NCBI GenBank assembly: GCA_003485325.1
Contig: DMZI01000068.1
Location: 38,553-102,552 of the forward strand
Length of the DNA: 64,000 nucleotides
Reading direction: 5' to 3'
Origin: Desulfotomaculum sp.
Lineage (GTDB): Bacteria; Bacillota; Desulfotomaculia; Desulfotomaculales; Nap2-2B
Shown: positions 9,981 to 24,592 of the stretch, in pieces
Position numbering within the stretch: the stretch's first letter is position 1
How the letters are laid out: every line of letters starts with the position of its first letter
Position numbers and translations under genes: made by a program
The notes under the pieces: generated by a model
What the model was told of the DNA's origin: nothing
Databases searched by the model: none
What the model saw: the letters and a program-made list of their open reading frames with translations, nothing else

Positions 9981-9981
9981 C

Positions 9982-10022: not shown

Positions 10023-10033
10023 GTTGTTAAATA

Positions 10034-10087
10034 TACAAATTTATTGTAATTATTTTAATTTAACCGGTCTATTGTTTTTTTTATTAT
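10034..10087 (+). promoter_or_regulatory. palindrome TACAAATTTATTGTA (10034-10048) plus putative sigmaA promoter TTAACC-16-TATTAT (10060-10087) upstream of adenine deaminase
   Basis: Read directly. The whole block is near-identical to 20160-20213 upstream of the hydroxylase operon. Confidence 0.45.
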
Positions 10088-10115
10088 TAAATTAAATATA
10101 AGGAGATTTCCAGTT

Positions 10116-11870
10116 ATGAATTTGAGAGAATTAAACAGTTTGATTAAGGTGGCGATGGGAGAAGAAAAGGCGGATTTAGTGCTCCAAAACGGCTCACTGG
10201 TTAACGTATATACGGGCGAAATACTGGAAGAACATTCTGTGGCCGTCAAGGGGGAAAGAATAGCCTGGGTAGGCAAAGACGACAGGAATGTTACAGGGCC
10301 TGAGACGAATGTTATCGACTGTACAGGGAAATTTATCATCCCGGGATTTATAGACGGCCACACCCATTTAATTCTTTTCTATCAGGCGGATCAGTTTCTT
10401 AGATATGCGATGCGGGGCGGGACTACCACAATAATTACAGAACTGATGGAAATCAGCTTTCCGCTTGGATATCAGGGAATTCTGGAATATCTGGAATCCC
10501 TTAAAAACCAGCCCATAAAGATTTTTGGTGTGGCGCCTCCGATGGTTACAAACAGCTTAAGGACGCGATCAAGAGCGATTAACCTTGATCAGATTGCCGA
10601 ACTGCTCAAACGTGATGATATTTTAGGTTTGGGAGAAACATACTGGTCAGCCGTAATTGAACGGGATGAAAAGATACTGGAGTTTTTTGTTGAGACTTTC
10701 AAGGCGGGCAAGATAATTGCGGGCCATACGGCCGGCGCCAGGGGCAACAGGCTTACAGCTTATGCGGCGGGAGGTGTCCGGTCGTGCCATGAGCCAATCA
10801 CCGCGGCGGATGTTTTGGAAAGGTTAAGGCTGGGTCTTTATGTACTGATCAGGGAAGGAGGTATCCGGAAAGAACTGGCGGAAATATCGAAAATAAAGGA
10901 TCTGCAGCTCGATCTGAGACAATTGATTCTATCCACGGACAGTATTACTCCTGAGCAAGTGGTAGAGGAAGGTTATATGGAAGCAGTGGTCCAGAAAGCC
11001 GTCGACCTTGGTTTTGATCCTGTTTGCGCTATCCAAATGGCTACACTAAACGTGGCCAAATACTGGAATCTGGATCATCTAATTGGTGGTATTGCGCCCA
11101 GCAAATATGCAGATATCATTATTCTGCCGGATCTGTACAATATAAAAGCCGAGTATGTAATCAGCAACGGCAAGGTTTTATCAAAAGAAGGCAAACTTCT
11201 TTTAGAACCAAGTAAATATACATTTCCGGCCTGGGCGCATAAAAGTATGCGGCTGACCAAGAATTTTGGACCTGAGGACTTTGAAATAAATGTTAAAAGC
11301 AACAGCGACCCTGTAAGAATCAGAGTAATTGAACAAATAACTGAACTGGTGACAAAGGAAACAATCCTGGAAGTCCCCGTCCTGGAGGGAAAAATCAAGG
11401 TTGATTTGGATAAAGACTTAATAAAAATTGCTGCTGTAGATTTTCTGGATGACCAGTTAAAAATGTTTGTCGGGTTAATCAAGGGCTTTCGGATGAAGAA
11501 AGGGGCGTTTGCCAGCAGCATGGCCTGGGATTTGACTAATATAGTGGTCATAGGAGCTGACGAAAAGGATATGGCGGTTGCTGTCAACAGGGTTCTAGAA
11601 CTTCAGGGAGGTATCGTGGTCTGTTCAAATGGTAAAATACTGGCTGAACTACCCATGTCCATAGGAGGTTACATGAGCAATCTTCCGATTGAAGAAATCG
11701 TCCAAAACCTTAAAGATATTCAAAAAGAGGCATCAGGTCTTGGCATCCCCTTCCCTGATGCGGAACTAAGCTTAAATACCCTGACAACTTCCGCAATACC
11801 ATTTTTCCGGATTTGCGAGGAAGGCTTTTATGATCTGAAAAACAACCGTTTGGTTGGCCTGCTGGTTTAA
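10116..11870 (+). CDS. ade: adenine deaminase
   Basis: 584 aa. It has the amidohydrolase metal motif IPGFIDGHTHL, and its length and the CHEP region are typical of the Ade family. An AAGGAG RBS is present. Confidence 0.9.
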   Translation: MNLRELNSLIKVAMGEEKADLVLQNGSLVNVYTGEILEEHSVAVKGERIAWVGKDDRNVTGPETNVIDCTGKFIIPGFIDGHTHLILFYQADQFLRYAMRGGTTTIITELMEISFPLGYQGILEYLESLKNQPIKIFGVAPPMVTNSLRTRSRAINLDQIAELLKRDDILGLGETYWSAVIERDEKILEFFVETFKAGKIIAGHTAGARGNRLTAYAAGGVRSCHEPITAADVLERLRLGLYVLIREGGIRKELAEISKIKDLQLDLRQLILSTDSITPEQVVEEGYMEAVVQKAVDLGFDPVCAIQMATLNVAKYWNLDHLIGGIAPSKYADIIILPDLYNIKAEYVISNGKVLSKEGKLLLEPSKYTFPAWAHKSMRLTKNFGPEDFEINVKSNSDPVRIRVIEQITELVTKETILEVPVLEGKIKVDLDKDLIKIAAVDFLDDQLKMFVGLIKGFRMKKGAFASSMAWDLTNIVVIGADEKDMAVAVNRVLELQGGIVVCSNGKILAELPMSIGGYMSNLPIEEIVQNLKDIQKEASGLGIPFPDAELSLNTLTTSAIPFFRICEEGFYDLKNNRLVGLLV

Positions 11871-12097
11871 AGTAAACTGAAAAAAGGGCAAACTGCCTTT
11901 TTGCCATGGTATAGGCGTCGGTTGTGTAGGGTTTGTTTCTGGAGCGGGGTATGCAATTTACAGAACAGATCTTCCGCACTCGGCGGCTATTAACAGCCTT
12001 CCGATTTCTTACGAAAAAATCTGGAAGGCAATTCGGGATAAGAAAAAAGAGATTCAAACTACCGGTTAATGTTTATATAGATTTGCAGGTGAGATTA

Positions 12098-12436
12098 ATG
12101 CGGCCTGTTTTTAAGATTTGGCTTGAGAATAACGGAAAAGTTTTTGGCGAAGGGCCTTTGGAGATTTTGCAAAAAGTTGAGAAAACGGGTTCTCTAAGAA
12201 GTGCAGCCGCACAGATGGGGATGTCTTATAATAAGGCCTGGCGCTTGATTGCCGCTCTTGAAGAAAGGTTGGGGTATTCTCTTTTAGAGAAAAGAGTTGG
12301 CGGAGCATGCGGCGGTGGCTCAAAAGTCACCCCGTATGCCCAACAGTTAATGAAAAGGTATTCCGAACTCAAGGAAGAAGCTGAAATTGTGCTAGAAAAG
12401 CTTTACCTTAAGCATTTTGAAGGGTTTAAGACCTAA
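12098..12436 (+). CDS. ModE N-terminal-domain-like (LysR-type wHTH) molybdate-responsive regulator
   Basis: 112 aa from the ATG with an AGGTGAG RBS. LEILQKVEKTGSLRSAAAQMGMSYNKAWRLIAALEERLGYSLLEKRVGGACGGGSKVTPYAQQL matches the ModE/MopA N-domain pattern. The upstream in-frame extension to 11933 looks non-coding. Confidence 0.7.
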   Translation: MRPVFKIWLENNGKVFGEGPLEILQKVEKTGSLRSAAAQMGMSYNKAWRLIAALEERLGYSLLEKRVGGACGGGSKVTPYAQQLMKRYSELKEEAEIVLEKLYLKHFEGFKT

Positions 12437-12467
12437 ACTAAAGCACTGTTATATTTTTTTATATCCA

Positions 12468-12487
12468 TTATACTAATATGAGTATAA
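12468..12487. promoter_or_regulatory. inverted repeat TTATACT-N6-AGTATAA (ending ...TATAACG), candidate ModE-type operator overlapping a TATACT -10
   Basis: Read directly, 64 nt upstream of the 12551 start. It resembles the TATAT-N-TAYATAACG architecture of E. coli ModE sites. Confidence 0.3.
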
Positions 12488-12550
12488 CGCTGTTAAAGAA
12501 ATGGATGCTTGACGCAGGTTTGGAATAAGTCTTGTTAAAGGAGAAACACC

Positions 12551-13600
12551 ATGCAGGCAAAAACAGTTAACCTTGAAGATGCGGTAGGCAGAATCCTTTC
12601 TCACGATCTGACCAAAATCGTCCGCGGTAAGTTTAAGGGACCTGCTTTTCGCAAAGGCCACCTTATTTGTCGTGAAGACATTGAAGAATTACTAAAAATG
12701 GGAAAAGAAAATGTTTATGTCTTGGAGCTTGCCGAAGATGAATTACACGAAGATGATGCCGGAATTCGCCTGGGAGCAGCCGCAGCCGGGGCAGGGATTA
12801 AGTGCTGCCAGCCAAAAGAGAGCAGGGTTTCTCTTTTTGCCGAATATGCTGGCCTGCTCAAAATTAATCTGGCTGTTCTTGAGGCGGTTAACGACCTTCC
12901 GGAGGTTGTTCTGTCTACCCTGCCTAACAACACACCGGTAATAAAAGGGGAAATGGTAGCCGGCACAAAAGTCATCCCGCTGGCCGTCAAGGAAGATATT
13001 ATAATATCGGCTGAGAAAATATGCAGGGAAAGCGGCGGAATTCTCCGTATAGCGCCGTATCAAAAATTAAAGGCAGCTGTTATCGTAACCGGCAGTGAGG
13101 TTTATTCGGGCAGGATTAAGGATGAATTTGGTCCGGTTTTAAAGGAAAAAATAGAATCCTTTGGCTCAACGGTGGACGAGATCGAATATGCTCCTGATAA
13201 TGCTCAGGAGATCAGCAGGTTGATTAATGGGGCAATCGACCGGGGAGCAGAAATTGTTCTGGTCAGTGGAGGTATGTCAGTTGATCCTGACGACGTAACA
13301 CCGCTGGGGATCAGACTTAGCGGGGCTGTAATAGAAAAATACGGGGCACCGGTTCTTCCGGGAGCAATGTTTTTACTGGCCTATAAAAAGGATGCTGCTG
13401 TTTTAGGAGTGCCGGCCTGCGGGATGTTTTTCAGGACTACCGTGTTGGACATTGTCCTGCCGCGCTTGTTTACCAAAGAAAAGGTTAAAAAGTATGATCT
13501 GGTTGCCCTGGCTCATGGCGGACTATGCAGGAGCTGTCCTGAATGCCGTTATCCGAGGTGCAGCTTCGGTTTGGCCGGATCCGGTTTTCAACTTGCCTAA
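12551..13600 (+). CDS. molybdopterin-binding (MoeA/MogA-like) protein with C-terminal CxxCxxCxxxxC cluster
   Basis: 349 aa. The N-terminus resembles a MoeA-like domain and the centre resembles a MoCF-biosynthesis domain (IVLVSGGMSVDPDD). The C-terminus reads CRSCPECRYPRC. Confidence 0.7.
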   Translation: MQAKTVNLEDAVGRILSHDLTKIVRGKFKGPAFRKGHLICREDIEELLKMGKENVYVLELAEDELHEDDAGIRLGAAAAGAGIKCCQPKESRVSLFAEYAGLLKINLAVLEAVNDLPEVVLSTLPNNTPVIKGEMVAGTKVIPLAVKEDIIISAEKICRESGGILRIAPYQKLKAAVIVTGSEVYSGRIKDEFGPVLKEKIESFGSTVDEIEYAPDNAQEISRLINGAIDRGAEIVLVSGGMSVDPDDVTPLGIRLSGAVIEKYGAPVLPGAMFLLAYKKDAAVLGVPACGMFFRTTVLDIVLPRLFTKEKVKKYDLVALAHGGLCRSCPECRYPRCSFGLAGSGFQLA

Positions 13601-13669
13601 AAGAGGAGTGATAACGGGTGTGTTTTCTGACTACTCGCGTCACGAATAACAGAAAGAGGTGCTTATGAG

Positions 13670-14458
13670 GTGCTTATATTGAAGATAAAAGTATATATCA
13701 AAATATTCGCGGTTGCATTTTTATGTCTAGCTTTAACAGGATGTGCACAAACAAAAAAGACAGAAGCTCCAGAAACTCTTTTTATATACTGCGGTTCCGG
13801 GCTATCGAAGCCCGTCCAAGAAATTGGAGAAGCTTTTGAAAAAAGGACAGGAACGGAAGTCACTTTTACTTTTGGCGGTTCAGCGCAGCTGGCCGGCCAG
13901 ATCCTTTTAACAAGGAAAGGCAATTTGTTCATCCCAGGTGATTTGAAGGACCTTGCGCCGGTGGAAGAAAAAGGATTAATAAATAAAAAGGCAAATATAG
14001 TTTACCATATTCCTGCGCTGGCAGTTCCCAAAAGCAACCCTGCCGGTATACACGGACTGATGGATCTGAAGCTTCCGGGCGTGAAGGTTGCCCTTGGCGA
14101 TCCCAAGTCATGCACGATAGGAAAAGTCGCCGATACTATGCTGCAGGAAAACCAAATTTATGATGACGTTGAAAAAAACGTTGTGGTCCGGACGGCGACG
14201 GCGAGAGAACTGGTCTTGTATTTAAGCACCGGGCAGGTGGATGCAGCTGTAATCTGGAAGGAGAACATTATTAATTGTAAGGACAAAATTGAATTAATAC
14301 CAGTTCCGGAATTAGATAGCTTTACTAAGATAGTCCCTGCTGCTATACTTACCTTTTCAGAACAAAAGGAAGCAGCCGAGCAGTTTTTAAATTTCCTCAA
14401 CACCGAAGAAAGTAAAGAAATCTGGAATAAATGGGGTTATCAGACAGTCGAAAGATAA
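13670..14458 (+). CDS. modA: molybdate ABC transporter substrate-binding lipoprotein
   Basis: 262 aa with the lipobox LALTGC and the ModA-like FGGSAQLAGQI region. It is followed by modB and modC. Confidence 0.85.
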   Translation: MLILKIKVYIKIFAVAFLCLALTGCAQTKKTEAPETLFIYCGSGLSKPVQEIGEAFEKRTGTEVTFTFGGSAQLAGQILLTRKGNLFIPGDLKDLAPVEEKGLINKKANIVYHIPALAVPKSNPAGIHGLMDLKLPGVKVALGDPKSCTIGKVADTMLQENQIYDDVEKNVVVRTATARELVLYLSTGQVDAAVIWKENIINCKDKIELIPVPELDSFTKIVPAAILTFSEQKEAAEQFLNFLNTEESKEIWNKWGYQTVER

Positions 14459-14497
14459 AAAACCCTTTTAGATTTAAAAGAAGGGAGGCTTAAAACT

Positions 14498-15289
14498 ATG
14501 AAGCTTTTCAGGATAACTAATATTATCATAACCTGCCTTCTTTGTTTGTTTATCCTAACAGCAGTTTGTACAGTGCTTGTAAGGGGCGTCCCTGAATTAT
14601 ACAGGGCGTTGAAAACTCCTGAAATTATATTTGCCCTGAAATTGAGCCTTTTTACATCAACAATTTCAACATTCTTATGTCTAATAGTTGCCTTGCCGGT
14701 TGCTTATACACTGAGCCGTTACAATATTCCAGGACAAGGTATGTTGGGGGCTGTCTTAAGGATACCTTTAAATTTACCGCCTATAGTTTCTGGGGTTTGT
14801 CTTTTGCTGCTGTTCGGTACGACACATTTTGGCAAAACAATGGAGAAAATAGGCCTGGACCTAGTTTTCACTGTTCAGGGTATTGTTGTAGCCCAGTTCT
14901 TTGTCAATTCACCAGGGCTCGTTACAGTGCTTAAAGGAGCCCTGGAATCTGTAGATGCAAGGCTTGAGTATGTTGCCAGGACACTTGGCTGCAGCCCCTG
15001 GCAGGCTTTTTGCAGGGTTACCATTCCCTTGATTAGAAACAGCGTGATTGCCGGTTTGGTGCTTGCCTGGGGGAAGGCCCTTGGAGAATTCGGGGCGGTT
15101 TTAATGCTTGCCGGCGCAATCAGGTTTAAAACCGAAACCCTCCCTATTTCAATTTTTTTAAACATGTCTACCGGTGATCTTGATTTGCTTATGGCTTCCG
15201 CTTCCATTTTGGTGCTCGTTTCTATACTGTCACTTCTGTTTTTTGAAAAAGCAGGAAATAAATTGTTTTGGCGGGTGTATGGACCATGA
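14498..15289 (+). CDS. modB: molybdate ABC transporter permease
   Basis: 263 aa, multi-TM, with the EAA-type loop RTLGCSPWQAFCRVTIP. Confidence 0.9.
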   Translation: MKLFRITNIIITCLLCLFILTAVCTVLVRGVPELYRALKTPEIIFALKLSLFTSTISTFLCLIVALPVAYTLSRYNIPGQGMLGAVLRIPLNLPPIVSGVCLLLLFGTTHFGKTMEKIGLDLVFTVQGIVVAQFFVNSPGLVTVLKGALESVDARLEYVARTLGCSPWQAFCRVTIPLIRNSVIAGLVLAWGKALGEFGAVLMLAGAIRFKTETLPISIFLNMSTGDLDLLMASASILVLVSILSLLFFEKAGNKLFWRVYGP

Positions 15290-16374
15290 CAGGCTATCTT
15301 AAAAATGAGGGTAAATTATTATTACAAGGTGTAACCAAGCGAATTGACGATTTTCACTTAAAAGATATCACTCTGGAGATTGCCCCGGGTGAATATTTCA
15401 TCCTCTTAGGCCCGTCTGGCGCTGGTAAAACAGTATTGTTGGAAACTATTGCCGGAATATATTCACCGGATCAGGGCGAGATATGGCTTGGCGGTATAAA
15501 CATAACCGTTCAGCCACCTGAAAAAAGGAGGTTTGGTTTTGTTTATCAGGACTATATGCTTTTCCCCCATCTTAATGTTGAGCAAAATATTTATTTTGGG
15601 CTCAGAAAAAAAAGAAAGCCTGGCAGCACTTTAGCTGGGATGGTGGAACATGTGGTATCTTTTCTTAAAATAGGCCACCTCCTTAATAGGTTCCCCCACA
15701 CCTTAAGCGGCGGGGAGCAGCAGCGGGTAGCCTTAGCCCGGGCACTTGCAATGGAACCACCGGTTTTGTTGATGGATGAACCGTTATCATCTTTAGATCC
15801 CCAAAGCAGGGAATCGCTTCAGCAGGAACTATCGGAACTTCATAAAATAACAAACATACCTACTATCCATGTAACGCATAATTTTGAGGAAGCATACTTT
15901 TTTGCAGACAGGGTAGGTGTAATGGATAAAGGCAGGATATTGCAGACAGGTAAACCACAGGAAATCTTTCCGCGGCCCTGTTCTGCAGAGGTGGCCAGTT
16001 TTGTTGGGGCGGAGAATGTCTTTTACAGTGATTTAATTTATAAAAACGGCAAGAAATTTGTCAGTTTAGGAAAGTCGATTTTAGAAGTAACAACCAACCT
16101 GTTTGGCAGAGTCGGATATTCAATAAGGCCGGAGCATATTTTGTTAAGCCTATCGCCGAAACCTGGAAACTGTTTAAAGGGAAGGATTGTTTCCGTTAAT
16201 TCAAGAGGTTTATTTTCCAAGCTAATTGTAGATGTCGGTGTTAAAATTAATGTTCTTTCCTTTCAGGAACATAATACTGGCCTGACTGCCGGAAAAGAAG
16301 TATACTGCTTTATTCCATATTGGGATATAAATATTTTCGATAACGGGGGCTATCTCGATGAAGCATGTCTATGA
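15286..16374 (+). CDS. modC: molybdate ABC transporter ATP-binding protein with C-terminal TOBE-like domain
   Basis: It has Walker A GPSGAGKT, the signature LSGGEQQRV and Walker B LLMDEP. The ATG at 15286 overlaps the modB stop (ATGA). The longest ORF starts at the TTG at 15268. Confidence 0.9.
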   Translation: MTGYLKNEGKLLLQGVTKRIDDFHLKDITLEIAPGEYFILLGPSGAGKTVLLETIAGIYSPDQGEIWLGGINITVQPPEKRRFGFVYQDYMLFPHLNVEQNIYFGLRKKRKPGSTLAGMVEHVVSFLKIGHLLNRFPHTLSGGEQQRVALARALAMEPPVLLMDEPLSSLDPQSRESLQQELSELHKITNIPTIHVTHNFEEAYFFADRVGVMDKGRILQTGKPQEIFPRPCSAEVASFVGAENVFYSDLIYKNGKKFVSLGKSILEVTTNLFGRVGYSIRPEHILLSLSPKPGNCLKGRIVSVNSRGLFSKLIVDVGVKINVLSFQEHNTGLTAGKEVYCFIPYWDINIFDNGGYLDEACL

Positions 16375-17500
16375 AAGTCTGCTTGATGCGCTGAAAACAG
16401 GTGACAGACCTGTATTGGTCACTCTGGTTTTTCGCAATGGAGATATTCTGCCGCCGCCGGGAAGTAAAAAATTATTCATTAAAAACAAGACGGTTGGAAA
16501 TCTTGAAACAGAGTGGCTTAACGGGGATATTGAACGTCTGGCTGAACAATCTAGAAAAACTAACCGTCTGGAAAAAACGGATGTATTTTTCCCGGGGGAT
16601 AAAGAAATATACTGTACACTTGTTGCAGAACCCATTTATGGAGTTGAAAAGCTATTTGTTTTGGGAGGCGGGAATATAGCACGTCCTTTGGTGCGTTTGG
16701 CTGATCTGCTAGGGTATCATGTTACTGTAGTTGATGACAGGCCAGAATACGCTAATTATGAACGCTTTCCTGAAGCCCGTGAAGTTATCTGCAGTGAATT
16801 TTTAGCTTATCTTGAAAATATGCCGGTAGATTTGTGGACCAGTGTTGTTATAGTTACCCGTGGTCACCAGTATGATTTACTCTGCCTTGAAGCGTTATCA
16901 GCACGTGAAATGGCCTATCTGGGCATGATTGGCAGCAAACAAAAAGTCGAAATGTCCAGAAAACATTTGCTGGCTGCAGGTATACCAACCGATAAAATAA
17001 AAATGATCCATGCTCCTATCGGGCTGGATATCGGTGCTCAAACCCCGGAGGAAATTGCTGTCAGCATAACAGCTGAGCTAATTAAAGCAAGGCGCGGTGG
17101 GAAGGCTCTTTCCTTATCGGAGGATTCAAATGACGGAAAGAAAGTTGAAGGCTACCTTCAGGGCAGTTCCCCCGCAACAAGTGATCTTTACCTGTTTGAA
17201 ACTGTCTTAACACGCATTAATGAGGGTTTGCCGGCAGCGCTTGCCACAGTGGTATCAACTTCGGGTTCGACACCCCGCAAAGCAGGCGCAAAAATGATGG
17301 TATCCCCGGATGGAGCAATAACAGGTACAATCGGCGGCGGGGTTTTTGAGGAAAAAGTTCGTCAGCTATCTGTCTCCATACTTGAAACCGGCCAGGCAGA
17401 ATTATATAGTTTTCAACTTGATAATAAATCAGCTGCTTCCCTGGGAATGCTCTGCGGCGGAGGAATGGAAGTTTTTATCGAACCTGTGAAAGGGGAGTAG
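16358..17500 (+). CDS. xdhC: XdhC/CoxI-family molybdenum hydroxylase maturation protein
   Basis: 380 aa with an XdhC_CoxI-like N-domain, a Rossmann segment (FVLGGGNIARPLVRLADLLGYHVTVVDDRPE) and a second XdhC_CoxI-like C-domain. It overlaps the modC 3' end by 17 nt. Confidence 0.85.
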   Translation: MKHVYESLLDALKTGDRPVLVTLVFRNGDILPPPGSKKLFIKNKTVGNLETEWLNGDIERLAEQSRKTNRLEKTDVFFPGDKEIYCTLVAEPIYGVEKLFVLGGGNIARPLVRLADLLGYHVTVVDDRPEYANYERFPEAREVICSEFLAYLENMPVDLWTSVVIVTRGHQYDLLCLEALSAREMAYLGMIGSKQKVEMSRKHLLAAGIPTDKIKMIHAPIGLDIGAQTPEEIAVSITAELIKARRGGKALSLSEDSNDGKKVEGYLQGSSPATSDLYLFETVLTRINEGLPAALATVVSTSGSTPRKAGAKMMVSPDGAITGTIGGGVFEEKVRQLSVSILETGQAELYSFQLDNKSAASLGMLCGGGMEVFIEPVKGE

Positions 17501-17506
17501 ACTAAC

Positions 17507-18346
17507 TTGAAAAATGTTCTTGTATTAATTAAAGGAGCTGGCGACCTTGCGAGCGGAGTAGCTCACCGCCTGTACAGGTGCGGGTTTATTCCGGTAATGA
17601 CGGAACTCGAAAAGCCCCTTGTAGTTAGAAGGAAAGTTGCTTTCGCCGAGGCCGTTTACTCCGGTGAAACAACGGTTGAGGGGGTTCGTGCCGAGCTTTG
17701 CAGTTCAATAAGTGATATTTCAAGCTTGCAGAAAAAGAAAATTATACCCGTAGTTATTGATCCGCAAGGAGAGCTTGTGCGTATTTTAAAGCCTGACGTT
17801 TTGATTGATGCTGTTATGGCAAAACGTAATACAGGAACAAAGATTACCGACGCGCCTGTTGTAATTGCGTTAGGTCCCGGTTTTACAGCCGGAGTTGATG
17901 TTCACGCCGTTATTGAAACGAAAAGAGGCCACGAACTGGGGAGAGTGATCCTGGAAGGGACTCCACAAGAAGATACCGGCGAACCACATATGGTAAATGG
18001 CTACACTTATCAAAGACTGATCAAAGCTCCTCAAGAAGGTGTTTTTATTTCATACTGTTCTATTGGAGAGATAGTTGAAAGCGGACAGATAATTGGCTAT
18101 ATCGAAGGCCGCCAGGTACAGACTCAAATTAAAGGTGTTTTACGAGGCCTTGTTGCAGACGGGTGTATTGTAAAAGAGGGAATGAAAATAGGAGATGTGG
18201 ATCCCAGATGCAAACCCGAGTACTGCTATACAATAAGTGATAAAGCCAGGGCAGTTGCCGGAGGGGTACTGGAAGCGATGCTTGATAGGGTACTTGACTG
18301 GGTGTTGAACAAAAAAGTTTCGGGTGGTGCTGGATTTGTTAATTGA
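17507..18346 (+). CDS. yqeB: selenium-dependent molybdenum hydroxylase system protein, YqeB family
   Basis: 279 aa. The N-terminus VLIKGAGDLASGVAHRLYRCGF, the length, and the position between xdhC and yqeC fit the YqeB-specific domain, which is fused to XdhC in E. coli YqeB. Confidence 0.75.
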   Translation: MKNVLVLIKGAGDLASGVAHRLYRCGFIPVMTELEKPLVVRRKVAFAEAVYSGETTVEGVRAELCSSISDISSLQKKKIIPVVIDPQGELVRILKPDVLIDAVMAKRNTGTKITDAPVVIALGPGFTAGVDVHAVIETKRGHELGRVILEGTPQEDTGEPHMVNGYTYQRLIKAPQEGVFISYCSIGEIVESGQIIGYIEGRQVQTQIKGVLRGLVADGCIVKEGMKIGDVDPRCKPEYCYTISDKARAVAGGVLEAMLDRVLDWVLNKKVSGGAGFVN

Positions 18347-19124
18347 ATACCCGACTTCATCTTTTCGTCAGGCAATGAATCTTTCTCCACGAGAATTGGT
18401 GGCTTTTGTTGGAGGAGGGGGTAAAACCACTGCTCTGCAATGTCTGGCCAAAGAACTATACGCTTCCAAGAAAAAAGTTGCTCTAACGACTACCACAAAA
18501 ATGCTCCTGAAACAGCTTTATTTTCAGGGAGGCTGTATTATTTCCGGCGACTACATTGAAATAGAAGAAAAAGTCAGTAGCCGGAATGGTTCTATACCGT
18601 TGATTGCCCTGATAAAAGAACAAATGTCTCAAGAAAAAATTTGTGGTCTACCACCGGAGTGGGTTGACAGGTTATGGAATCTTGATAAAGTTGATTATCT
18701 TGTTGTTGAAGCCGATGGCAGCCGCGGGAAATCATTGAAAGCTCCGGCTAATCATGAACCTCAAATACCCGGCGAAGCTACCCTGGTAGTGCCTGTTGTT
18801 GGTCTTGACATATTGAACAAGCGGCTGACAGCTGAATTTGTCCACCGTCCGGAACTGGTTTCCCTGCTCTGCGATGCAGCACAGGGTTCTGTAATCATAA
18901 CCGGGACAATCTCAAAGATAATTGTTCATCCTCTCGGATTAAAAAAAGGAGTTCCTGCCGGGGCAAGGTTTATACCATTGATTAATAAAGTTGACGTGGC
19001 AGAGGATTGGTCGGTTGCCAGAACACTCGCGATAGAGATTTTTAAGTCTGATAAGGATATTGAAAGAGTCATTTTGGCAAGTTTTATACAAAATAGTTTT
19101 TCTGTGATCCGCCGCTCCAATTAA
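18324..19124 (+). CDS. yqeC: selenium-dependent hydroxylase accessory protein, YqeC family (P-loop)
   Basis: 266 aa with VAFVGGGGKTT and VVEADGSRGKSLKAPANHEP. An alternative start is the ATG at 18375. Confidence 0.75.
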   Translation: MVLDLLIEYPTSSFRQAMNLSPRELVAFVGGGGKTTALQCLAKELYASKKKVALTTTTKMLLKQLYFQGGCIISGDYIEIEEKVSSRNGSIPLIALIKEQMSQEKICGLPPEWVDRLWNLDKVDYLVVEADGSRGKSLKAPANHEPQIPGEATLVVPVVGLDILNKRLTAEFVHRPELVSLLCDAAQGSVIITGTISKIIVHPLGLKKGVPAGARFIPLINKVDVAEDWSVARTLAIEIFKSDKDIERVILASFIQNSFSVIRRSN

Positions 19125-19145
19125 ATTCTACCGGGGGAGTGCTTT

Positions 19146-19757
19146 TTGAGCAATTTTATTTCAGCTGTTATTTTAGCAGCGGGACAGGGAACAAGAATTG
19201 GCCGGCAAAAACTTCTCCTGACACTTGGCGGGAAAACAATAATCGAAATTGCAGTTGCTGCCGCACTGGGATCGAAGGTCAGTGAAACAATAGTTGTTTT
19301 AGGCCACCAGTCTGAAGAGATTGCCCAAGTTTTAAAAGGTCTGCCTGTCAAAACGGTTTTCAACCCCGATTACCGTTTAGGGCAAAGCACTTCCTTGATT
19401 TCCGGAATAAAGGCGATAAATCCTAAATCCGATGCATTCCTGGTTGTTCTGGGCGACCAGCCCTTCGTAACCTCTTTGTTGATCGATCAACTTATTGATT
19501 TTTATGAAAGATCTTTATGCCTCATTGCCAGGCCGCAATTTCAGGAAATACCCGGCCACCCAGTGCTTTTTAATACCAGTCTTATCCCGGAATTGTTAAA
19601 CAATTTAAAAGGAGATATTGGAGCCCGCGAAATAATCGCCCGTCATCAGGACAAGGTCAGTTTAATGCGGATTAAAAATGAGTCTGCGTCTAAGGACATT
19701 GATACATACGGTGATTATCAGACCGCTAAAGAATATTATTCAAAGACCTTAAAGTAA
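19146..19757 (+). CDS. mocA: MobA-like nucleotidyltransferase (YgfJ/MocA, molybdenum cofactor cytidylyltransferase family)
   Basis: 203 aa with the N-terminal AVILAAGQGTRIG..K motif and LGDQP. A GGGGGAG RBS is present. Confidence 0.8.
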   Translation: MSNFISAVILAAGQGTRIGRQKLLLTLGGKTIIEIAVAAALGSKVSETIVVLGHQSEEIAQVLKGLPVKTVFNPDYRLGQSTSLISGIKAINPKSDAFLVVLGDQPFVTSLLIDQLIDFYERSLCLIARPQFQEIPGHPVLFNTSLIPELLNNLKGDIGAREIIARHQDKVSLMRIKNESASKDIDTYGDYQTAKEYYSKTLK

Positions 19758-19892
19758 ATAACAAGAGATTTATCAGGTTGTACTAAGCAGGAGTGCAGAT
19801 GTAGCCTCGTAATACATAAAATCCGGTGGCTGAGCCAGTCGATACGGGGCGAAGGCGGAAGGTATAAAGAACAGACTGACCGTTCGGCTTTT

Positions 19893-19923
19893 CACCCATC
19901 GGCGGAGTATCAGCGGCGACAGG
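19893..19923. repeat. weak B-tail-like repeat fragment (CACCCATCGGCGGAGTATCAGCGGCGACAGG)
   Basis: It resembles CATCGGAGTAAGCGGTGACAATG (27314-27336) and CACCGGAGTAAGCGGCGATAAAT (46977-46999). Divergent. Confidence 0.3.
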
Positions 19924-20107
19924 TATTATTATTGATTAATCATATAGATCGGGTTTATAATAAACCCAATTATCTTCGCAAGGTGGAAAGAAAATTAAAC
20001 AGAAGTGACTTCTAAACCAGCCGGACAGGGGATTACAAAAAGAGCCCGTGTCTTTAATTCTTTAATATTGAATCTAAAAAAAGTTTACAAATTTATAGGG
20101 CAACTTC

Positions 20108-20148
20108 TAAGGCTTGACAATTTAAAAGTGTTTAAGTCTTATTTTTTT
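20108..20148 (+). terminator. hairpin TAAGGCTT-N18-AAGTCTTA followed by a T-run (second copy of the cassette terminator, after the ygfJ/mocA operon)
   Basis: Read directly. It has one mismatch in the stem relative to 9982-10013. Confidence 0.4.
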
Positions 20149-20159
20149 GTCGCAAAATA

Positions 20160-20213
20160 TACAAATTTATTGTAATTATTTTGATTTGACCAGTTATCTG
20201 ATTCTTTTATTAT
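20160..20213 (+). promoter_or_regulatory. palindrome TACAAATTTATTGTA (20160-20174) plus putative sigmaA promoter TTGACC-16-TATTAT (20186-20213)
   Basis: Read directly. An extra half-site TACAAATTTAT lies at 20086-20096, and a 5'-UTR hairpin ATTAATGC-N14-GCATTAAT lies at 20221-20250. Confidence 0.45.
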
Positions 20214-20300
20214 TAAATTAATTAATGCAGCTTGCGGTGCAGGCATTAATACATTGCCGAAAGCAACTTGTTAAAAGTTAATATAAAGGAGAGTAATTTT

Positions 20301-20684
20301 ATGGAAGATGAAAAAGATGCGGTTTGTTGGCAGGACGGAGGTGTAAACCCTTCTCATGAAACCCCGACCCTTATTAAAGCTGCCCATGAACGTGAGCATA
20401 AACATGACATAGAACATTATCTCGATGAAATCAAGAAATGGGAGTACTGTTATTGCGCGAATTGCAGGCAAATGAGATTTAGTACGGAACTTGAGGCAAC
20501 AGAGAACGGGATTCGCTGCGCCAAATGCAAAAGTTATAACCTGGAAGCCCCTGGCTGGGTTGTTTGCCCTTATCACAAAGATTCATTGGTTAAGTGCGCC
20601 CGGGCGGGTAAGGGAATAGTGAAATTAAAGCATGAAGCCGAGTGTAGGGATCACTGCCATTTTCGGGTAACCAAGGAAAAGTAA
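20301..20684 (+). CDS. hypothetical Cys-rich (10 Cys) zinc-ribbon-like protein, first gene of the hydroxylase operon
   Basis: 127 aa from the ATG with an AAGGAGAG RBS. Motifs are CYCANC...CAKC (ribbon-like pair), then C..H, C and CRDHCH. I recognise no family. Confidence 0.6.
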   Translation: MEDEKDAVCWQDGGVNPSHETPTLIKAAHEREHKHDIEHYLDEIKKWEYCYCANCRQMRFSTELEATENGIRCAKCKSYNLEAPGWVVCPYHKDSLVKCARAGKGIVKLKHEAECRDHCHFRVTKEK

Positions 20685-20794
20685 TAAAAGCTGGAAAAAT
20701 ACGATTTTAACAATTTGTAAGAAGAGGTGGTACAGGAAACTAGGGATAGTCGGGGTTTTTAGTGTTTGAAAAATTGCGAAGAGGTGATCAAAAC

Positions 20795-21664
20795 ATGTAT
20801 CTGCCAAATTTTGAATATTTTCAGCCGGATAGTATTGAGGAAACCTGCCAATTGTTGTCACAGTTTGGTTCCAAAGCCAAATTGTTCGCCGGCGGGACCG
20901 ATGTTATCATCAAGATGAAAAAAGAGTTGTTGTCGCCGGAAATCCTCGTCTCCATCGAGAAAATCGACCAATTGAAAAAAATCGAGTATGTACCCGGCAA
21001 AGGCGTTGTTATCGGAAGCGGAGTTACCCATAACGATTTAGTCTATTCAGAGCTTTTGCATGAAAAATACCTGTCCATATCCGAAGCGGCCCGGCAAATG
21101 GCGAACAACCAGGTGCGAAACCTCGGCACCGTAGGCGGCAATATCGGCAGCGCCGTACCTTCCGCCGATCTGCCGCCGATACTCATCGCCCTTGGCGCAA
21201 CCGTTAAAATTACGGGTGTGAAGGGAGATCGGACCATGGATCTGGAAGATGTGTTCATCGGTCCCGGTAAGACCGTTTTGGCACAAGACGAAATTATCAC
21301 CGAAGTAGTCATCCCCGACCAGAAAATGACCGGCAGCAATTACATCAAATTCGGGCTGCGGGCATCGGGCGCCTTAGCCGTGGTTGGTGTGGCGGCAGCA
21401 GTTCAAGTTGAAAACAATGCCATCAAAGAGGCGAGAATAGTACTGGGAGCGGTTTCACCCACACCGGTGCGGGCAAAAAAAGCCGAAGAGTTCCTGAAAG
21501 ACAAGAAAATCAGCGACGAACTATTGGCCGGAGCCGGGGTCATTGCCTCCGGGGAATGCGTGCCTATCACAGACATACGGGCCTCGGCCGAATACCGTAA
21601 AGACATGGTGCGCGTCTTTACCAGGCGGGCATTGCGCAAAGCTATCGACGAAGGGCATGCTTAA
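20795..21664 (+). CDS. xanthine dehydrogenase family FAD-binding subunit (CoxM/XdhB-like)
   Basis: About 289 aa from the ATG with an AGAGGTGA RBS. It has FAGGTDVIIKMK and GTVGGNIGSAVPSADLPP, and a C-terminal CO dehydrogenase flavoprotein domain (SAEYRKDM). Confidence 0.9.
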   Translation: MYLPNFEYFQPDSIEETCQLLSQFGSKAKLFAGGTDVIIKMKKELLSPEILVSIEKIDQLKKIEYVPGKGVVIGSGVTHNDLVYSELLHEKYLSISEAARQMANNQVRNLGTVGGNIGSAVPSADLPPILIALGATVKITGVKGDRTMDLEDVFIGPGKTVLAQDEIITEVVIPDQKMTGSNYIKFGLRASGALAVVGVAAAVQVENNAIKEARIVLGAVSPTPVRAKKAEEFLKDKKISDELLAGAGVIASGECVPITDIRASAEYRKDMVRVFTRRALRKAIDEGHA

Positions 21665-21680
21665 GAAAGGGGCGCTGAAA

Positions 21681-22178
21681 ATGTTAAAGTTCGTTACAGA
21701 TAAAGACGGAGTCAAACGTTATTTAGTTTCATTAAAAGTTAACGGCAACGAGTATACAAGGATGGTTAAAGCCAACAGCCTGCTGGTAAACTTCTTGCGG
21801 GAGGAGCTTGACCTTACCGGAACTAAAAAGGCGTGCGAACAGGCCGATTGCGGCGCCTGCACCGTGCTGCTGGATGGGAAACCGGTCAACTCCTGCATGA
21901 TCCTGACCATCAACGCCGACGGGCGGGAAGTCATAACTGTCGAAGGTCTCGCTACAAATGGAAAGCTGGACATACTCCAGGAAAAATTCATAGAACACTC
22001 GGCGCCGCAATGCGGCTACTGCACTCCCGGCATACTCATGTCGGCCAAAGCGTTGCTTAATCGCAATCCCCACCCAACCGAATATGAAGTACGCGAGGCT
22101 ATAGCAGGCAACCTGTGCCGTTGCACAGGATATGTCAATTACGTCAAGGCAATTTTAGACGCGGCAGAAAATCAATAA
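21681..22178 (+). CDS. xanthine dehydrogenase family (2Fe-2S)-binding subunit
   Basis: 165 aa with CEQADCGACTV (plant-type cluster) and CGYCTPG...CRCTGY (second cluster). Confidence 0.9.
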   Translation: MLKFVTDKDGVKRYLVSLKVNGNEYTRMVKANSLLVNFLREELDLTGTKKACEQADCGACTVLLDGKPVNSCMILTINADGREVITVEGLATNGKLDILQEKFIEHSAPQCGYCTPGILMSAKALLNRNPHPTEYEVREAIAGNLCRCTGYVNYVKAILDAAENQ

Positions 22179-22186
22179 AGAAAGGA

Positions 22187-24526: not shown

Positions 24527-24592
24527 TCCGGGCATTGTAGGGGGCTTTAAAATGAACCAAAAAGAAATTGATGAAATCAATAAAACTATACC

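What the first reader, a model, noticed from the sequence alone, without database searches (positions are those of the whole stretch)
12098..19757. One long operon couples molybdate uptake to selenium-dependent molybdenum hydroxylase maturation (MoeA-like, modABC, xdhC, yqeB, yqeC, ygfJ)
The genes from 12551 to 19757 are tightly packed. modB/modC overlap (ATGA), modC/xdhC overlap by 17 nt, yqeB/yqeC overlap by about 23 nt, and the other gaps are 40 nt or less except 69 nt before modA. A ModE-like regulator precedes them. YqeB, YqeC and YgfJ families are comparative-genomics markers of the labile-selenium-cofactor (SDMH) trait, and their biochemical roles remain unresolved. Here YqeB is split from its XdhC-like part, whereas the two are fused in E. 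coli YqeB. A dedicated Mo transporter embedded in the same transcript is an unusually explicit supply chain. No selD or sulfur/selenium-transferase gene lies in the window.
Basis: partly seen in the sequence, partly recalled or inferred. Interest (0 to 1): 0.6.

Follow-up and report, generated by a model that had tools for sequence, protein, structure and literature searches.

The report
Molybdate-uptake and hydroxylase-maturation gene cluster
A Desulfotomaculum-type bacterium packs a molybdate pump into the same gene row as the helper proteins (a MoeA-like protein, XdhC, YqeB, YqeC, MocA) that build the molybdenum cofactor for a neighbouring xanthine-dehydrogenase-type enzyme. The helpers are already-known markers of the selenium-dependent form of such enzymes, so only the embedded pump is unusual.

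Summary
HMMs assign YqeB (359 bits, cut-off 220) and YqeC (163 bits, cut-off 73) firmly. ModA and the permease also pass curated cut-offs. MocA, ModC, XdhC and the regulator are best hits below cut-off.

The window is 100% identical in two proteins to the MAG 'Desulfotomaculum sp. 46_296'.

Comparison adds three points:
- MoeA-like, XdhC, YqeB is a conserved order in Firmicutes. Here modABC is inserted into it. A sister lineage has deleted exactly that block, and the window has deleted a second hydroxylase operon.
- Stand-alone YqeB is the norm among its closest relatives. The adjacent XdhC is a circularly permuted three-domain protein, so YqeB is not simply 'split'.
- YqeC is predicted to be a G3E-like GTPase. 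It is fused to MocA in 32 of its 120 best-matching clusters, which suggests a MobB-like partner of MocA rather than a selenium enzyme.

A mod transporter next to yqeB is rare, with one full and about one partial case in 80 species-level loci, but it is not unique. Selenium dependence and selD cannot be tested from this window.

Verdict: a real, well-annotatable member of a known system, moderately interesting.

The parts
11880..12074 (+). Deletion scar: two fragments (11880-11987 and 11989-12074) of the large-subunit gene of a second XDH-family hydroxylase
   Evidence: The fragments are 95% and 91% nt identical to codons 422-457 and 742-767 of the intact gene. That gene lies between ade and the regulator in the sister contigs L081-L083.
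12098..12436 (+). ModE-N-type HTH regulator (112 aa) without Mop/molybdate-binding domains
   Evidence: PF00126 scores 43 bits and passes. TIGR00637 scores 67.5 bits against a cut-off of 98.5. The match to E. coli-type ModE covers only profile positions 22-93 of 263. Homologues lie within 8 kb of yqeB in 8 of 80 loci.
12468..12487 (.). Palindrome TTATACT-N6-AGTATAA, a candidate operator in the regulator/MoeA-like intergenic region
   Evidence: It is the only exact match in the window. The core TATACT..AGTATAACG is conserved in L081 and L082 while the flanks diverge. A near-consensus minus-strand promoter overlaps it.
12551..13600 (+). MoeA-like 'molybdopterin-binding protein' (349 aa): unassigned N-terminal 170 aa, a MoCF_biosynth domain, and a C-terminal CxxCxxCxxxxC motif
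   Evidence: PF00994 matches at residues 176-306. hhalign to E. coli MoeA aligns only domain III, with probability 90%. The family has more than 7900 hits of about 345 aa. It lies next to xdhC-yqeB or yqeC-mocA in three named genomes and in 10 of 80 yqeB loci.
13670..14458 (+). modA: lipoprotein molybdate-binding protein
   Evidence: TIGR01256 scores 105.4 against a cut-off of 62.5. All PDB sequence hits are ModA proteins. The signal peptide carries an LTGC lipobox.
14498..15289 (+). modB-type permease
   Evidence: TIGR01581 scores 237.2 against a cut-off of 210.3. TIGR02141 scores 179.5 against 182.6.
15286..16374 (+). modC-type ABC ATPase with a C-terminal TOBE_2 domain
   Evidence: The best hit is WtpC at 356.5 bits (cut-off 440). 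ModC TIGR02142 scores 196.5 (cut-off 285). PF00005 and PF08402 match. It overlaps modB by ATGA.
16358..17500 (+). XdhC-family Moco chaperone, circularly permuted: CoxI' (1-98), Rossmann (99-241), CoxI (288-352)
   Evidence: Pfam gives the domain order. PDB 2WE7 has CoxI, CoxI', Rossmann. E. coli YqeB residues 13-97 align to residues 289-374 here. Two-domain XdhCs align their single CoxI domain to both ends of this protein.
17507..18346 (+). yqeB: stand-alone EF2563-type protein
   Evidence: TIGR03309 scores 359.5 against a cut-off of 220. It is 51% identical to E. coli YqeB residues 270-524. The AF2 model has pLDDT 92.9 and shows a Rossmann-like domain plus a barrel-sandwich-hybrid domain. No solved analogue exists; the best TM-score is 0.26.
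18324..19124 (+). yqeC: predicted SIMIBI/G3E-like P-loop GTPase (alternative start at 18336)
   Evidence: TIGR03172 scores 163.2 against a cut-off of 73. The AF2 model has pLDDT 95.9, and its top folds are HypB, FtsY/Ffh and MeaB. The motifs GGGGKT, EADG and NKVD are conserved. Of 120 best clusters, 32 are YqeC-MocA fusions.
19146..19757 (+). mocA/ygfJ-type Moco cytidylyltransferase
   Evidence: TIGR03310 is the best hit at 174.1 bits, below its cut-off of 186.45, and matches over the full length. PF12804 scores 129.6. It is 27% identical to E. coli MocA over the full length.
19742..19917 (+). Decayed group II intron fragment in the 540-nt spacer after mocA
   Evidence: RF02005 scores 42.6 bits against a gathering score of 49, E 1e-10. 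The relative L084 carries an above-threshold group II D1-D4 match (91 bits) at the same relative position.
20088..20224 (+). Promoter-like region shared with the adenine-deaminase gene (other copy at 9962-10098)
   Evidence: Direct repeats D1 and D2 are 79-84% identical and include GGCTTGACAA and TACAAATTTATTGTA. The repeat is also present in L081.
20301..20684 (+). Small protein with 8 invariant cysteines, upstream of the hydroxylase genes
   Evidence: It is conserved in L081, L084 and L086. Only 17 cluster representatives exist among 1.84 billion proteins. It has no Pfam family.
20795..24526 (+). Probable client enzyme: XDH-family hydroxylase with FAD (20795-21664), 2Fe-2S (21681-22178) and Mo (22187-24526) subunits
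   Evidence: Family hits are. The nearest solved large subunit is 4-HBCR alpha, 1RM6, at 502 bits; the next hit scores 263. Orthologues (61-74% identity) lie directly next to yqeB in L038. Start codons were checked.

Best explanation
This is a molybdenum supply-and-maturation gene cluster for a xanthine-dehydrogenase-family hydroxylase. It lies in a genome essentially identical to the MAG 'Desulfotomaculum sp. 46_296'.

A short ModE-N-type regulator comes first. After a promoter region with a conserved palindrome come eight tightly coupled genes.

Proposed flow. Each step is inferred from homology; none is shown for this organism.
1. ModABC imports molybdate. ModA is a lipoprotein and ModC has a TOBE domain.
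2. Mo-molybdopterin, made by genes elsewhere in the genome, is handled by the MoeA-like molybdopterin-binding protein.
3. MocA adds CMP to give the cytosine dinucleotide cofactor (MCD).
4. YqeC is a G3E-like GTPase that is often fused to MocA. It acts as MocA's nucleotide-dependent partner or hand-off chaperone, as MobB does for MobA.
5. The permuted XdhC holds MCD while its terminal ligand is set. YqeB performs or assists the selenium-specific step, using activated selenium from a selD located elsewhere.
6. The finished cofactor is inserted into the FAD/FeS/Mo hydroxylase encoded 1 kb downstream. That enzyme has its own promoter region, which it shares with the adenine-deaminase gene.

History. 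The widely conserved order is MoeA-like, XdhC, YqeB (then YqeC, MocA). modABC is an insertion into that order. A sister lineage has deleted it again.
For: Packing and overlaps.

Families. YqeB, YqeC, ModA and the permease score above curated cut-offs.

Source organism: P0121 and P0241 are 100% identical to the window proteins.

The cassette is conserved. Within 8 kb of yqeB in 80 species-level loci: yqeC in 41-42, xdhC in 35-36, mocA in 31-33, a hydroxylase large subunit in 28, the MoeA-like gene in 10. The order hydroxylase, MoeA-like, XdhC, YqeB occurs in Heliomicrobium modesticaldum and Pelotomaculum propionicicum. The order MoeA-like, YqeC, MocA occurs in Desulforamulus reducens.

modABC is an insertion and is dispensable:
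- L084 (88% YqeB identity) has modABC-xdhC-yqeB-yqeC-mocA like the window.
- L081-L083 go from the regulator straight to xdhC. They keep the first 85 nt or so of the MoeA-like gene and the last 35 nt of modC.

An independent mod linkage exists in the Dehalococcoidales locus L026 (modA-modB-modC-yqeB-yqeC-xdhC-mocA-MoeA-like) and in L019.

YqeC as a GTPase partner of MocA:
- AF2 pLDDT is 95.9, and Foldseek returns HypB, FtsY/Ffh, MeaB and IcmF.
- G1, ExxG and NKxD motifs are conserved in 60-63 of 63 sequences.
- 32 of 120 clusters are fusions with YqeC N-terminal and MocA C-terminal.
- yqeC is directly followed by mocA in 16 of the 27 loci that have both.

Client enzyme: orthologous hydroxylase genes lie directly beside yqeB in L038.

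Selenium link, from the literature:
- TIGR03309 is found only in selD-positive genomes (PMC2276186).
- A C. difficile yqeB deletion phenocopies a selD deletion on xanthine and urate, while a yqeC deletion has no phenotype (PMC11448449).

The established roles of MocA (Moco cytidylyltransferase) and XdhC (Moco binding and insertion) are family knowledge. For XdhC this rests on Neumann et al. 2006, cited as reference 19 in PMC2276186.
Against: - There are no transcript data. The 69-nt and 39-nt gaps around modA, or sites inside genes, could hold promoters. The consensus scan finds many weak sites.
- MocA (174 vs 186), ModB TIGR02141 (179.5 vs 182.6), ModC (196 vs 285; best hit WtpC at 356 vs 440), XdhC equivalogs and ModE (67.5 vs 98.5) all fall below curated cut-offs. 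Those names are best guesses.
- No selD, NifS-like or sulfurtransferase gene is in the 64 kb.
- Only 13 of 80 related loci have selD near yqeB.
- No sequence feature tells Se-type from S-type hydroxylases (bioRxiv 10.1101/2025.04.24.650524).
- The hydroxylase is closest to 4-hydroxybenzoyl-CoA reductase, not to any enzyme shown to need selenium.
- The YqeC NKxD motif is not kept in E. coli YqeC, which has INRF.
- MobB itself was not among the top 50 structural hits.
Confidence: 0.7

Rival explanations
1. The cassette matures an ordinary sulfur-type (Mo=S) MCD hydroxylase here. On this view YqeB and YqeC are general MCD-enzyme maturation factors, and selenium plays no part in this organism.
For: - No selD or Se/S-transferase gene lies in the window.
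- selD is near yqeB in only 13 of 80 loci.
- YqeC looks like a MocA partner, not a selenium enzyme.
- A C. difficile yqeC deletion has no phenotype (PMC11448449).
- The nearest characterised enzyme is 4-HBCR, which to my knowledge is not described as selenium-dependent.
Against: - TIGR03309 has been found only in selD-positive genomes (PMC2276186).
- A C. difficile yqeB deletion phenocopies a selD deletion (PMC11448449).
- All uric-acid-degrading gut strains examined carried YqeB, YqeC and SelD together (bioRxiv 10.1101/2025.04.24.650524).
- selD need not be linked to yqeB. It is unlinked in C. difficile.
Confidence: 0.2
2. The genes are not one transcript. modABC, with or without the MoeA-like gene, and xdhC-yqeB-yqeC-mocA are separately promoted modules that merely abut.
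For: - The two modules occur apart in most genomes.
- A sister lineage runs xdhC-mocA without modABC.
- Non-coding gaps of 69 nt and 39 nt flank modA.
- Promoter-like hexamers occur inside the cluster, for example at 17382 and 18664.
Against: - modB/modC overlap by 4 nt and modC/xdhC by 17 nt, with a ribosome-binding site for xdhC inside modC.
- No convincing intrinsic terminator lies on the + strand between 12551 and 19757. The listed sites sit inside coding sequence with poor T-runs.
- In L081 the same upstream region, with the conserved palindrome, is what remains in front of xdhC after the deletion. This implies xdhC depends on that promoter.
Confidence: 0.2
3. The ABC transporter supplies a different oxyanion, either tungstate or selenate/selenite for the selenium step, rather than molybdate.
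For: - The best ATPase hit is tungstate WtpC at 356 bits.
- The permease also scores 140-173 bits on sulfate CysT/CysW models.
- ModA scores only 46 bits on the E. coli-type model PRK10677.
- It is established knowledge that ModA-class proteins generally bind tungstate as well as molybdate.
Against: - The binding protein sets specificity, and it passes the ModA equivalog (105 vs 62.5).
- It matches only ModA structures in the PDB. No WtpA, TupA or sulfate-binding protein matches at E <= 1e-5.
- WtpA scores only 32 bits against a cut-off of 355.
- The upstream regulator is of ModE type.
Confidence: 0.08

Closest known systems
E. coli yqeB-yqeC / mocA (ygfJ) locus inside the ygeV-ygfT purine-catabolism region
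   Same: The proteins are homologous. YqeB is 51% identical over the YqeB domain, YqeC 30% and MocA 27%. The locus lies beside XDH-family hydroxylase genes.
   Different: - E. coli YqeB (541 aa) carries an N-terminal two-domain XdhC module (CoxI then Rossmann). Here XdhC is a separate three-domain protein with the conserved CoxI domain at its C-terminus.
- In E. coli, yqeBC and mocA are divergently oriented.
- E. coli has no modABC and no MoeA-like gene at the locus.
Selenium-cofactor (SDMH) trait loci of Enterococcus faecalis (EF2563-EF2570) and Clostridioides difficile (PMC2276186, PMC11448449)
   Same: Both have stand-alone 'EF2563-type' YqeB, YqeC and a MocA-like gene next to molybdenum hydroxylases. 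In C. difficile, yqeC, mocA and a 'molybdopterin cofactor biosynthesis protein' are adjacent, as yqeC, mocA and the MoeA-like gene are elsewhere.
   Different: - E. faecalis has selD and a NifS-like gene in the cluster. None is present here.
- In C. difficile, yqeB and yqeC are unlinked.
- Neither locus is described as having an embedded molybdate transporter.
XdhC chaperones (Rhodobacter capsulatus XdhC; solved homologues 2WE7/2WE8 and 3ON5)
   Same: The same two Pfam domains are present (XdhC_CoxI and XdhC_C). Matches are E 2e-42 to 2WE7 and 5e-27 to 3ON5. The presumed role is binding and insertion of Moco.
   Different: The domain order is circularly permuted: CoxI', Rossmann, CoxI instead of CoxI, CoxI', Rossmann. 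Scores fall below the TIGR02964 and NF045664 cut-offs.
MobA-MobB (E. coli MGD synthesis) as a functional analogue of MocA-YqeC
   Same: In both, a MobA-family nucleotidyltransferase is paired, and in many genomes fused, with a SIMIBI-class P-loop NTPase. The NCBIfam model NF011056 for a bifunctional MobA/MobB appears. From my own knowledge, MobB is dispensable in E. coli. A C. difficile yqeC deletion likewise has no phenotype (PMC11448449).
   Different: YqeC is a distinct family (PF19842) of about 260 aa with an NKxD motif. No sequence or top-50 structural match to MobB was obtained.
E. coli modABC-modE molybdate system
   Same: It has a ModA-class binding protein, a ModB-type permease, an ATPase with a TOBE domain, and a ModE-type HTH. 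The candidate operator contains AGTATAACG. From memory, this resembles the E. coli ModE half-site TATATAACG.
   Different: - The regulator has 112 aa and no Mop domains.
- The transporter sits inside a cofactor-maturation cluster.
- The ModC and ModB equivalog cut-offs are not reached.
Dehalococcoidales MAG locus L026 (CAYGXW010000015.1)
   Same: It has the same gene set on one strand: mocA, modA, modB, modC, yqeB, yqeC, xdhC, mocA, MoeA-like.
   Different: - The gene order differs, and a 0.8-kb gap separates modC from yqeB.
- The mod proteins are only 31-43% identical, so the linkage probably arose independently.

Membership tests
YqeB (TIGR03309, 'EF2563 family') | Whole-protein score above the curated equivalog cut-off, with full-length match | tested here: met
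   359.5 bits against a cut-off of 220. Residues 6-259 match profile positions 1-254 of 256. 51% identical to E. coli YqeB residues 270-524.
YqeC (TIGR03172 / PF19842) | Score above the curated cut-offs | tested here: met
   163.2 bits against 73.05, and 140.4 against 27.6. 30% identical to E. coli YqeC over 240 aa.
MocA/YgfJ Moco cytidylyltransferase (TIGR03310) | Score above the curated equivalog cut-off | tested here: not met
   174.1 bits against 186.45, although it is the best hit and matches over the full length (residues 6-193 on profile positions 1-187 of 188). PF12804 passes. 27% identical to E. coli MocA. The protein is MocA-like; cytidine specificity is not shown.
Selenium-cofactor (SDMH) trait | [quoted passage not shown] | not testable with these tools
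   YqeB and YqeC are present. selD is absent from the 64-kb window.
Selenium-dependent molybdenum hydroxylase (the enzyme itself) | Labile selenium at the Mo centre that is required for activity | not testable with these tools
   No sequence signature is known (bioRxiv 10.1101/2025.04.24.650524). TIGR03311 Se_dep_XDH scores 374 against a cut-off of 830.
XdhC family | XdhC_CoxI and XdhC_C domains present | tested here: met
   PF13478 scores 145.9 and PF02625 scores 85.3.
XdhC family | Canonical domain order (CoxI N-terminal to Rossmann) and the equivalog cut-off | tested here: not met
   The conserved CoxI domain lies at 288-352, after the Rossmann domain at 99-241. TIGR02964 scores 129.8 against 161.6. 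NF045664 scores 289 against 350.
ModABC molybdate transporter | ModA-class substrate-binding protein | tested here: met
   TIGR01256 scores 105.4 against 62.5. Only ModA structures are hit in the PDB.
ModABC molybdate transporter | ModB and ModC equivalog scores | tested here: inconclusive
   For ModB, TIGR02141 scores 179.5 against 182.6, but TIGR01581 passes at 237 against 210. For ModC, TIGR02142 scores 196.5 against 285, and the best hit is WtpC at 356.5 against 440.
ModE | N-terminal ModE HTH domain plus C-terminal di-Mop molybdate-binding domains | tested here: not met
   The protein has only 112 aa. TIGR00637 scores 67.5 against 98.5. PRK10676 scores 44.9 against 369 and covers only profile positions 22-93 of 263. 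No Mop/TOBE domain was found.
MoeA (molybdopterin molybdotransferase) | MoeA_N, MoCF_biosynth and MoeA_C architecture | tested here: not met
   Only PF00994 is found. PRK10680 scores 19.3 against 440. hhalign to E. coli MoeA aligns only residues 169-316 of MoeA.
G3E / SIMIBI P-loop GTPases (for YqeC) | GxxGxGK[ST], ExxG and NKxD motifs, and a SIMIBI fold | tested here: inconclusive
   The motifs are conserved: GGGGKT in 63 of 63 sequences, EADG in 63 of 63, N and K in 62 of 63. The fold hits are HypB, FtsY and MeaB at probability 1.0 but TM-score only about 0.4. No HMM-level membership was found, and nucleotide specificity is untested.
4-hydroxybenzoyl-CoA reductase | Alpha subunit above cut-off, and a beta subunit with the [4Fe-4S] insertion | tested here: not met
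   The alpha subunit (TIGR03194) scores 925 against 994.55. The beta subunit (TIGR03195) scores 120 against 404.55. The 289-aa FAD subunit has too few cysteines for a 4Fe-4S loop.

The most novel reading that the evidence does not exclude
The marker pair YqeB and YqeC does not form one 'selenium machine'.

YqeC is a G3E-like GTPase that works with, and in many genomes is fused to, the cytidylyltransferase MocA. It is the MobB-equivalent of the MCD branch. This would explain why deleting it gave no phenotype in C. difficile.

The selenium-specific chemistry would then be left to YqeB, acting on MCD held by the permuted XdhC. YqeB combines a Rossmann-like domain with a barrel-sandwich-hybrid domain, a fold combination with no solved counterpart.

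The highly conserved but uncharacterised MoeA-like protein, with its C-terminal 4-Cys motif, would be an overlooked fifth core member of the cassette. This locus, with its own Mo pump and a client enzyme 1 kb away, would be a compact set for reconstituting the pathway.
Probability: 0.35. Interest if true: 0.6.

Novelty: new member of a known kind. Interest (0 to 1): 0.35.

Why it matters
How selenium is put onto the molybdenum cofactor is the least understood route of biological selenium use. The pathway matters for anaerobic purine and urate degradation, including in the gut.

This locus does not solve that question. It does gather transporter, regulator, five accessory genes and a client enzyme within 12.5 kb. 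Natural 'knock-out' relatives exist: one without modABC and the MoeA-like gene, and the window itself without a second hydroxylase.

The comparative results give testable roles:
- YqeC as a GTPase partner of MocA.
- YqeB plus XdhC as the selenium step.
- The MoeA-like protein as a cassette member.

The embedded molybdate pump shows that cofactor-metal supply can be wired directly into maturation. This is a rare but recurrent arrangement.

Tried and rejected
- Moco or purine riboswitch, or another known RNA, in front of the cluster. Rfam found nothing at gathering thresholds in the whole window, and nothing relevant at E <= 1 in 9700-25200.
- YqeB as a biotin/lipoyl-type carrier, following the AccB similarity noted in PMC11448449. 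The C-terminal domain is BCCP-like by Foldseek. By-eye alignment puts the BCCP biotinyl-lysine opposite a variable, non-lysine position of YqeB (alignment A1). The invariant K227 lies elsewhere. Rejected, but not rigorously.
- An invariant YqeB cysteine (C240) as a universal persulfide or perselenide carrier. E. coli YqeB has Phe at that position.
- The MoeA-like protein as a true MoeA. Rejected.
- The hydroxylase as 4-hydroxybenzoyl-CoA reductase. Rejected because the beta subunit lacks the Fe-S insertion.
- The palindrome as a general operator of ModE-N regulators next to yqeB. The pattern TATAC-N4-10-GTATA was found only in the window and in L081/L082, not in nine more distant loci. Only a half-site CGTTATAG is visible in L052.
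- Tungstate, sulfate or selenate specificity of the transporter. No support from the binding protein.
- Finding selD for this organism. The window lacks it.
- Sequence-level solved homologues of YqeB and YqeC. None were found; the TAL-effector hits to YqeC are spurious.
- Internal similarity between the XdhC N-terminal and C-terminal domains from single sequences was not significant. Homology was shown indirectly through two-domain XdhCs.

Full report
**1. What is there**

The window is a chromosome segment of a spore-forming Firmicute. It carries pcrA, ligA, gatAB, an atp operon, spoIID, purLQ and che genes. Two of its proteins are 100% identical to entries from the MAG 'Desulfotomaculum sp. 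46_296' (P0121; P0241).

I read every junction:
- modB/modC share ATGA.
- modC/xdhC overlap by 17 nt, with a GGGGG ribosome-binding site for xdhC inside modC.
- xdhC/yqeB are 6 nt apart.
- yqeB/yqeC overlap by 23 nt, or by 11 nt with the TTG start used in the public annotation.
- yqeC/mocA are 21 nt apart.
- The gaps before modA and modB are 69 and 39 nt.
- No convincing + strand terminator lies inside the row.

**2. Family tests**

| Protein | Model | Score | Cut-off |
|---|---|---|---|
| YqeB | TIGR03309 | 359.5 | 220 |
| YqeC | TIGR03172 | 163.2 | 73 |
| ModA | TIGR01256 | 105.4 | 62.5 |
| Permease | TIGR01581 | 237 | 210 |
| MocA | TIGR03310 | 174.1 | 186.45 |
| ModC | WtpC (best hit) | 356 | 440 |
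| ModC | TIGR02142 | 196 | 285 |

- XdhC passes both Pfam domains but no equivalog.
- The regulator has 112 aa. It has the ModE N-terminal HTH (67.5 bits against a cut-off of 98.5) and no Mop domain.
- The first gene has only a MoCF_biosynth domain at residues 176-306. A profile comparison with E. coli MoeA aligns only that domain. It is a 'molybdopterin-binding protein', not MoeA.
- ModA matches only molybdate-binding proteins in the PDB.

**3. Selenium genes**

No selD, NifS-like or sulfurtransferase gene was found among the ORFs of 150 aa or more.

It did hit 13 of the 80 related loci.

Whether the genome has selD could not be tested. [quoted passage not shown]

**4. Relatives**

All 120 best YqeB clusters are stand-alone proteins of 260-291 aa. 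I fetched 80 species-level loci and mapped the window's proteins onto them. Counts within 8 kb of yqeB:

| Neighbour | Loci (of 80) |
|---|---|
| yqeC | 41-42 |
| xdhC | 35-36 |
| mocA | 31-33 |
| Hydroxylase large subunit | 28 |
| selD | 13 |
| MoeA-like gene | 10 |
| ModE-N regulator | 8 |
| Complete modABC | 1 (L026, a Dehalococcoidales MAG) |

L026 carries the same gene set. In L019, a mod-type ATPase gene lies 0.2 kb from yqeB.

In three named genomes the MoeA-like gene lies directly after a hydroxylase and before XdhC-YqeB or YqeC-MocA. The conserved cassette is therefore MoeA-like, XdhC, YqeB (then YqeC, MocA). The window has modABC inserted between its first two members.

**5. Close relatives show the locus in motion**

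- L084 (88% YqeB identity) has modABC-xdhC-yqeB-yqeC-mocA and the same downstream genes as the window.
- L081-L083 have ade, a first hydroxylase operon, the regulator, then xdhC-yqeB-yqeC-mocA.
- Alignment shows that L081 keeps the regulator, the intergenic region, the first 85 nt or so of the MoeA-like gene and the last 35 nt of modC. That lineage deleted window positions 12637-16322.
- Conversely, the window keeps two fragments of the large-subunit gene of the first hydroxylase, at 11880-11987 and 11989-12074. They are 95% and 91% identical and cover codons 422-457 and 742-767. The window lineage deleted that operon.
- The modABC block is thus dispensable in a sibling, and xdhC-mocA can run from the same upstream region.

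**6. Regulation**

The regulator/MoeA-like spacer holds a perfect palindrome, TTATACT-N6-AGTATAA, which is unique in the window. Its core is conserved in L081 while the flanks drift. From memory it resembles the ModE half-site TATATAACG. It is a candidate operator only, because more distant loci lack it.

The hydroxylase genes are separated from mocA by 540 nt. This spacer contains a decayed group II intron fragment.

The hydroxylase genes are preceded by a 140-nt promoter-like region that is 79-84% identical to the region upstream of the adenine-deaminase gene. The enzyme is therefore probably co-regulated with ade rather than with the maturation genes, and it probably acts on a purine-like substrate. 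In L081 ade is followed directly by the paralogous hydroxylase.

**7. The accessory proteins**

- **XdhC.** The PDB homologue 2WE7 is CoxI, CoxI', Rossmann. The window protein is CoxI', Rossmann, CoxI. Its C-terminal domain is the one that matches the N-terminus of E. coli YqeB, at 42% identity. Two-domain XdhCs align their single CoxI domain to both ends of the window protein. Among yqeB-linked XdhCs I counted 15 window-like, 8 canonical and about 13 two-domain forms. The permutation is common and not peculiar to this window.
- **YqeB.** The AF2 model (pLDDT 92.9) has a Rossmann-like domain with a GAGDLASG loop, a barrel-sandwich-hybrid (BCCP-like) domain and a long helix. Foldseek finds no whole-protein analogue. 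The best TM-score is 0.26, with separate hits to SDR-type and BCCP domains.
- **YqeC.** The AF2 model (pLDDT 95.9) is a SIMIBI-class P-loop protein whose best matches are HypB, FtsY/Ffh, MeaB and IcmF. Its GGGGKT, EADG and NKVD motifs are nearly invariant, which is the G3E pattern.
- **YqeC-MocA link.** Of the 120 best YqeC clusters, 32 are fusions with YqeC at the N-terminus and MocA at the C-terminus, the same order as the genes here. yqeC is directly followed by mocA in 16 of the 27 loci that have both.

I infer that YqeC is the nucleotide-dependent partner of MocA, as MobB is of MobA. This would fit the lack of a yqeC-deletion phenotype in C. difficile (PMC11448449). I found no paper in the held library that links YqeC with GTP or P-loop terms.

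**8. Mechanism proposed** (all steps inferred from homology)

1. ModABC imports molybdate.
2. The MoeA-like protein handles Mo-molybdopterin.
3. MocA, with YqeC, makes and hands on MCD.
4. XdhC holds the cofactor while YqeB, with selenium activated by an unlinked SelD, sets the terminal ligand.
5. XdhC inserts the cofactor into the FAD/FeS/Mo hydroxylase.

The large subunit of that hydroxylase is closest to 4-HBCR alpha (502 bits, next hit 263), but the FAD subunit lacks the Fe-S insertion. Its orthologues sit directly beside yqeB in L038.

**9. Verdict**

This is a new member of the known SDMH-accessory gene system, described in 2008. Its operon architecture, with an embedded molybdate transporter, is uncommon but not unique.

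Selenium dependence, single-transcript status and the roles of YqeB, YqeC and the MoeA-like protein remain inferences. Interest is moderate. The locus is a compact, naturally 'dissected' model, but it does not by itself open the mechanism.

Noticed in passing
window 11880-11987 and 11989-12074: Two in-frame fragments of a hydroxylase large-subunit gene. The gene is intact at this position in sister contigs L081-L083, so this is a deletion scar. The 167-aa ORF 11933-12436 is an artefact of it. L081 itself has a second, degraded copy of the first fragment at 8081-8186.
   Followed up: yes
window 9962-10098 and 20088-20224: A promoter-like region of about 140 nt, 79-84% identical between its two copies. 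It contains GGCTTGACAA, the palindrome TACAA-N5-TTGTA and a second TTGACC/TATTAT pair. One copy lies upstream of the adenine-deaminase gene and the other upstream of the Cys-rich ORF and hydroxylase genes. It suggests a shared purine-type regulon. No regulator was identified.
   Followed up: partly
window 19742-19917; L084 6584-6719: A sub-threshold match to group II intron domains D1-D4 (42.6 bits, gathering score 49) just after mocA. The close relative L084 has an above-threshold match (91 bits) at the same relative place, plus about 550 nt of extra sequence. No domain V and no intron ORF were found, so this is a decayed remnant.
   Followed up: partly
window 20301-20684: A 127-aa protein with eight invariant cysteines (CxxC...CxxC plus four more) directly upstream of the hydroxylase genes. 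It has no Pfam family. Only 17 cluster representatives exist among 1.84 billion proteins. It is conserved in L081, L084 and L086. It could be a small metal-binding subunit or an assembly factor.
   Followed up: partly
window 16358-17500: XdhC is a circular permutant (CoxI', Rossmann, CoxI) of the solved 2WE7-type order. Among yqeB-linked XdhCs this form (15) outnumbers the canonical three-domain form (8).
   Followed up: yes
protein P0175 (metagenome, 367 aa): A fusion of a ModE-N-type HTH domain with YqeC. The HTH belongs to the same family as the window regulator. It could be a real regulator-NTPase fusion or a gene-calling artefact.
   Followed up: no
window 12467-12496, minus strand: A near-consensus sigma-70 promoter (TTAACA-18-TATAAT, 11 of 12 matches) lies on the minus strand and overlaps the palindrome. 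It would read antisense into the regulator gene.
   Followed up: no
window 13525-13563 (MoeA-like protein residues 326-337): A C-terminal CRSCPECRYPRC motif. C326, C329, C332 and C337 are invariant in 40 family members, which suggests a metal or Fe-S site in this uncharacterised 'molybdopterin-binding protein' family.
   Followed up: partly
window 26027-27019 and 25137-25985: A 2-hydroxyglutaryl-CoA dehydratase D-component-like gene lies without its usual partners beside a glutamate-racemase-like gene, just downstream of the hydroxylase. The same pair is present in L084.
   Followed up: no
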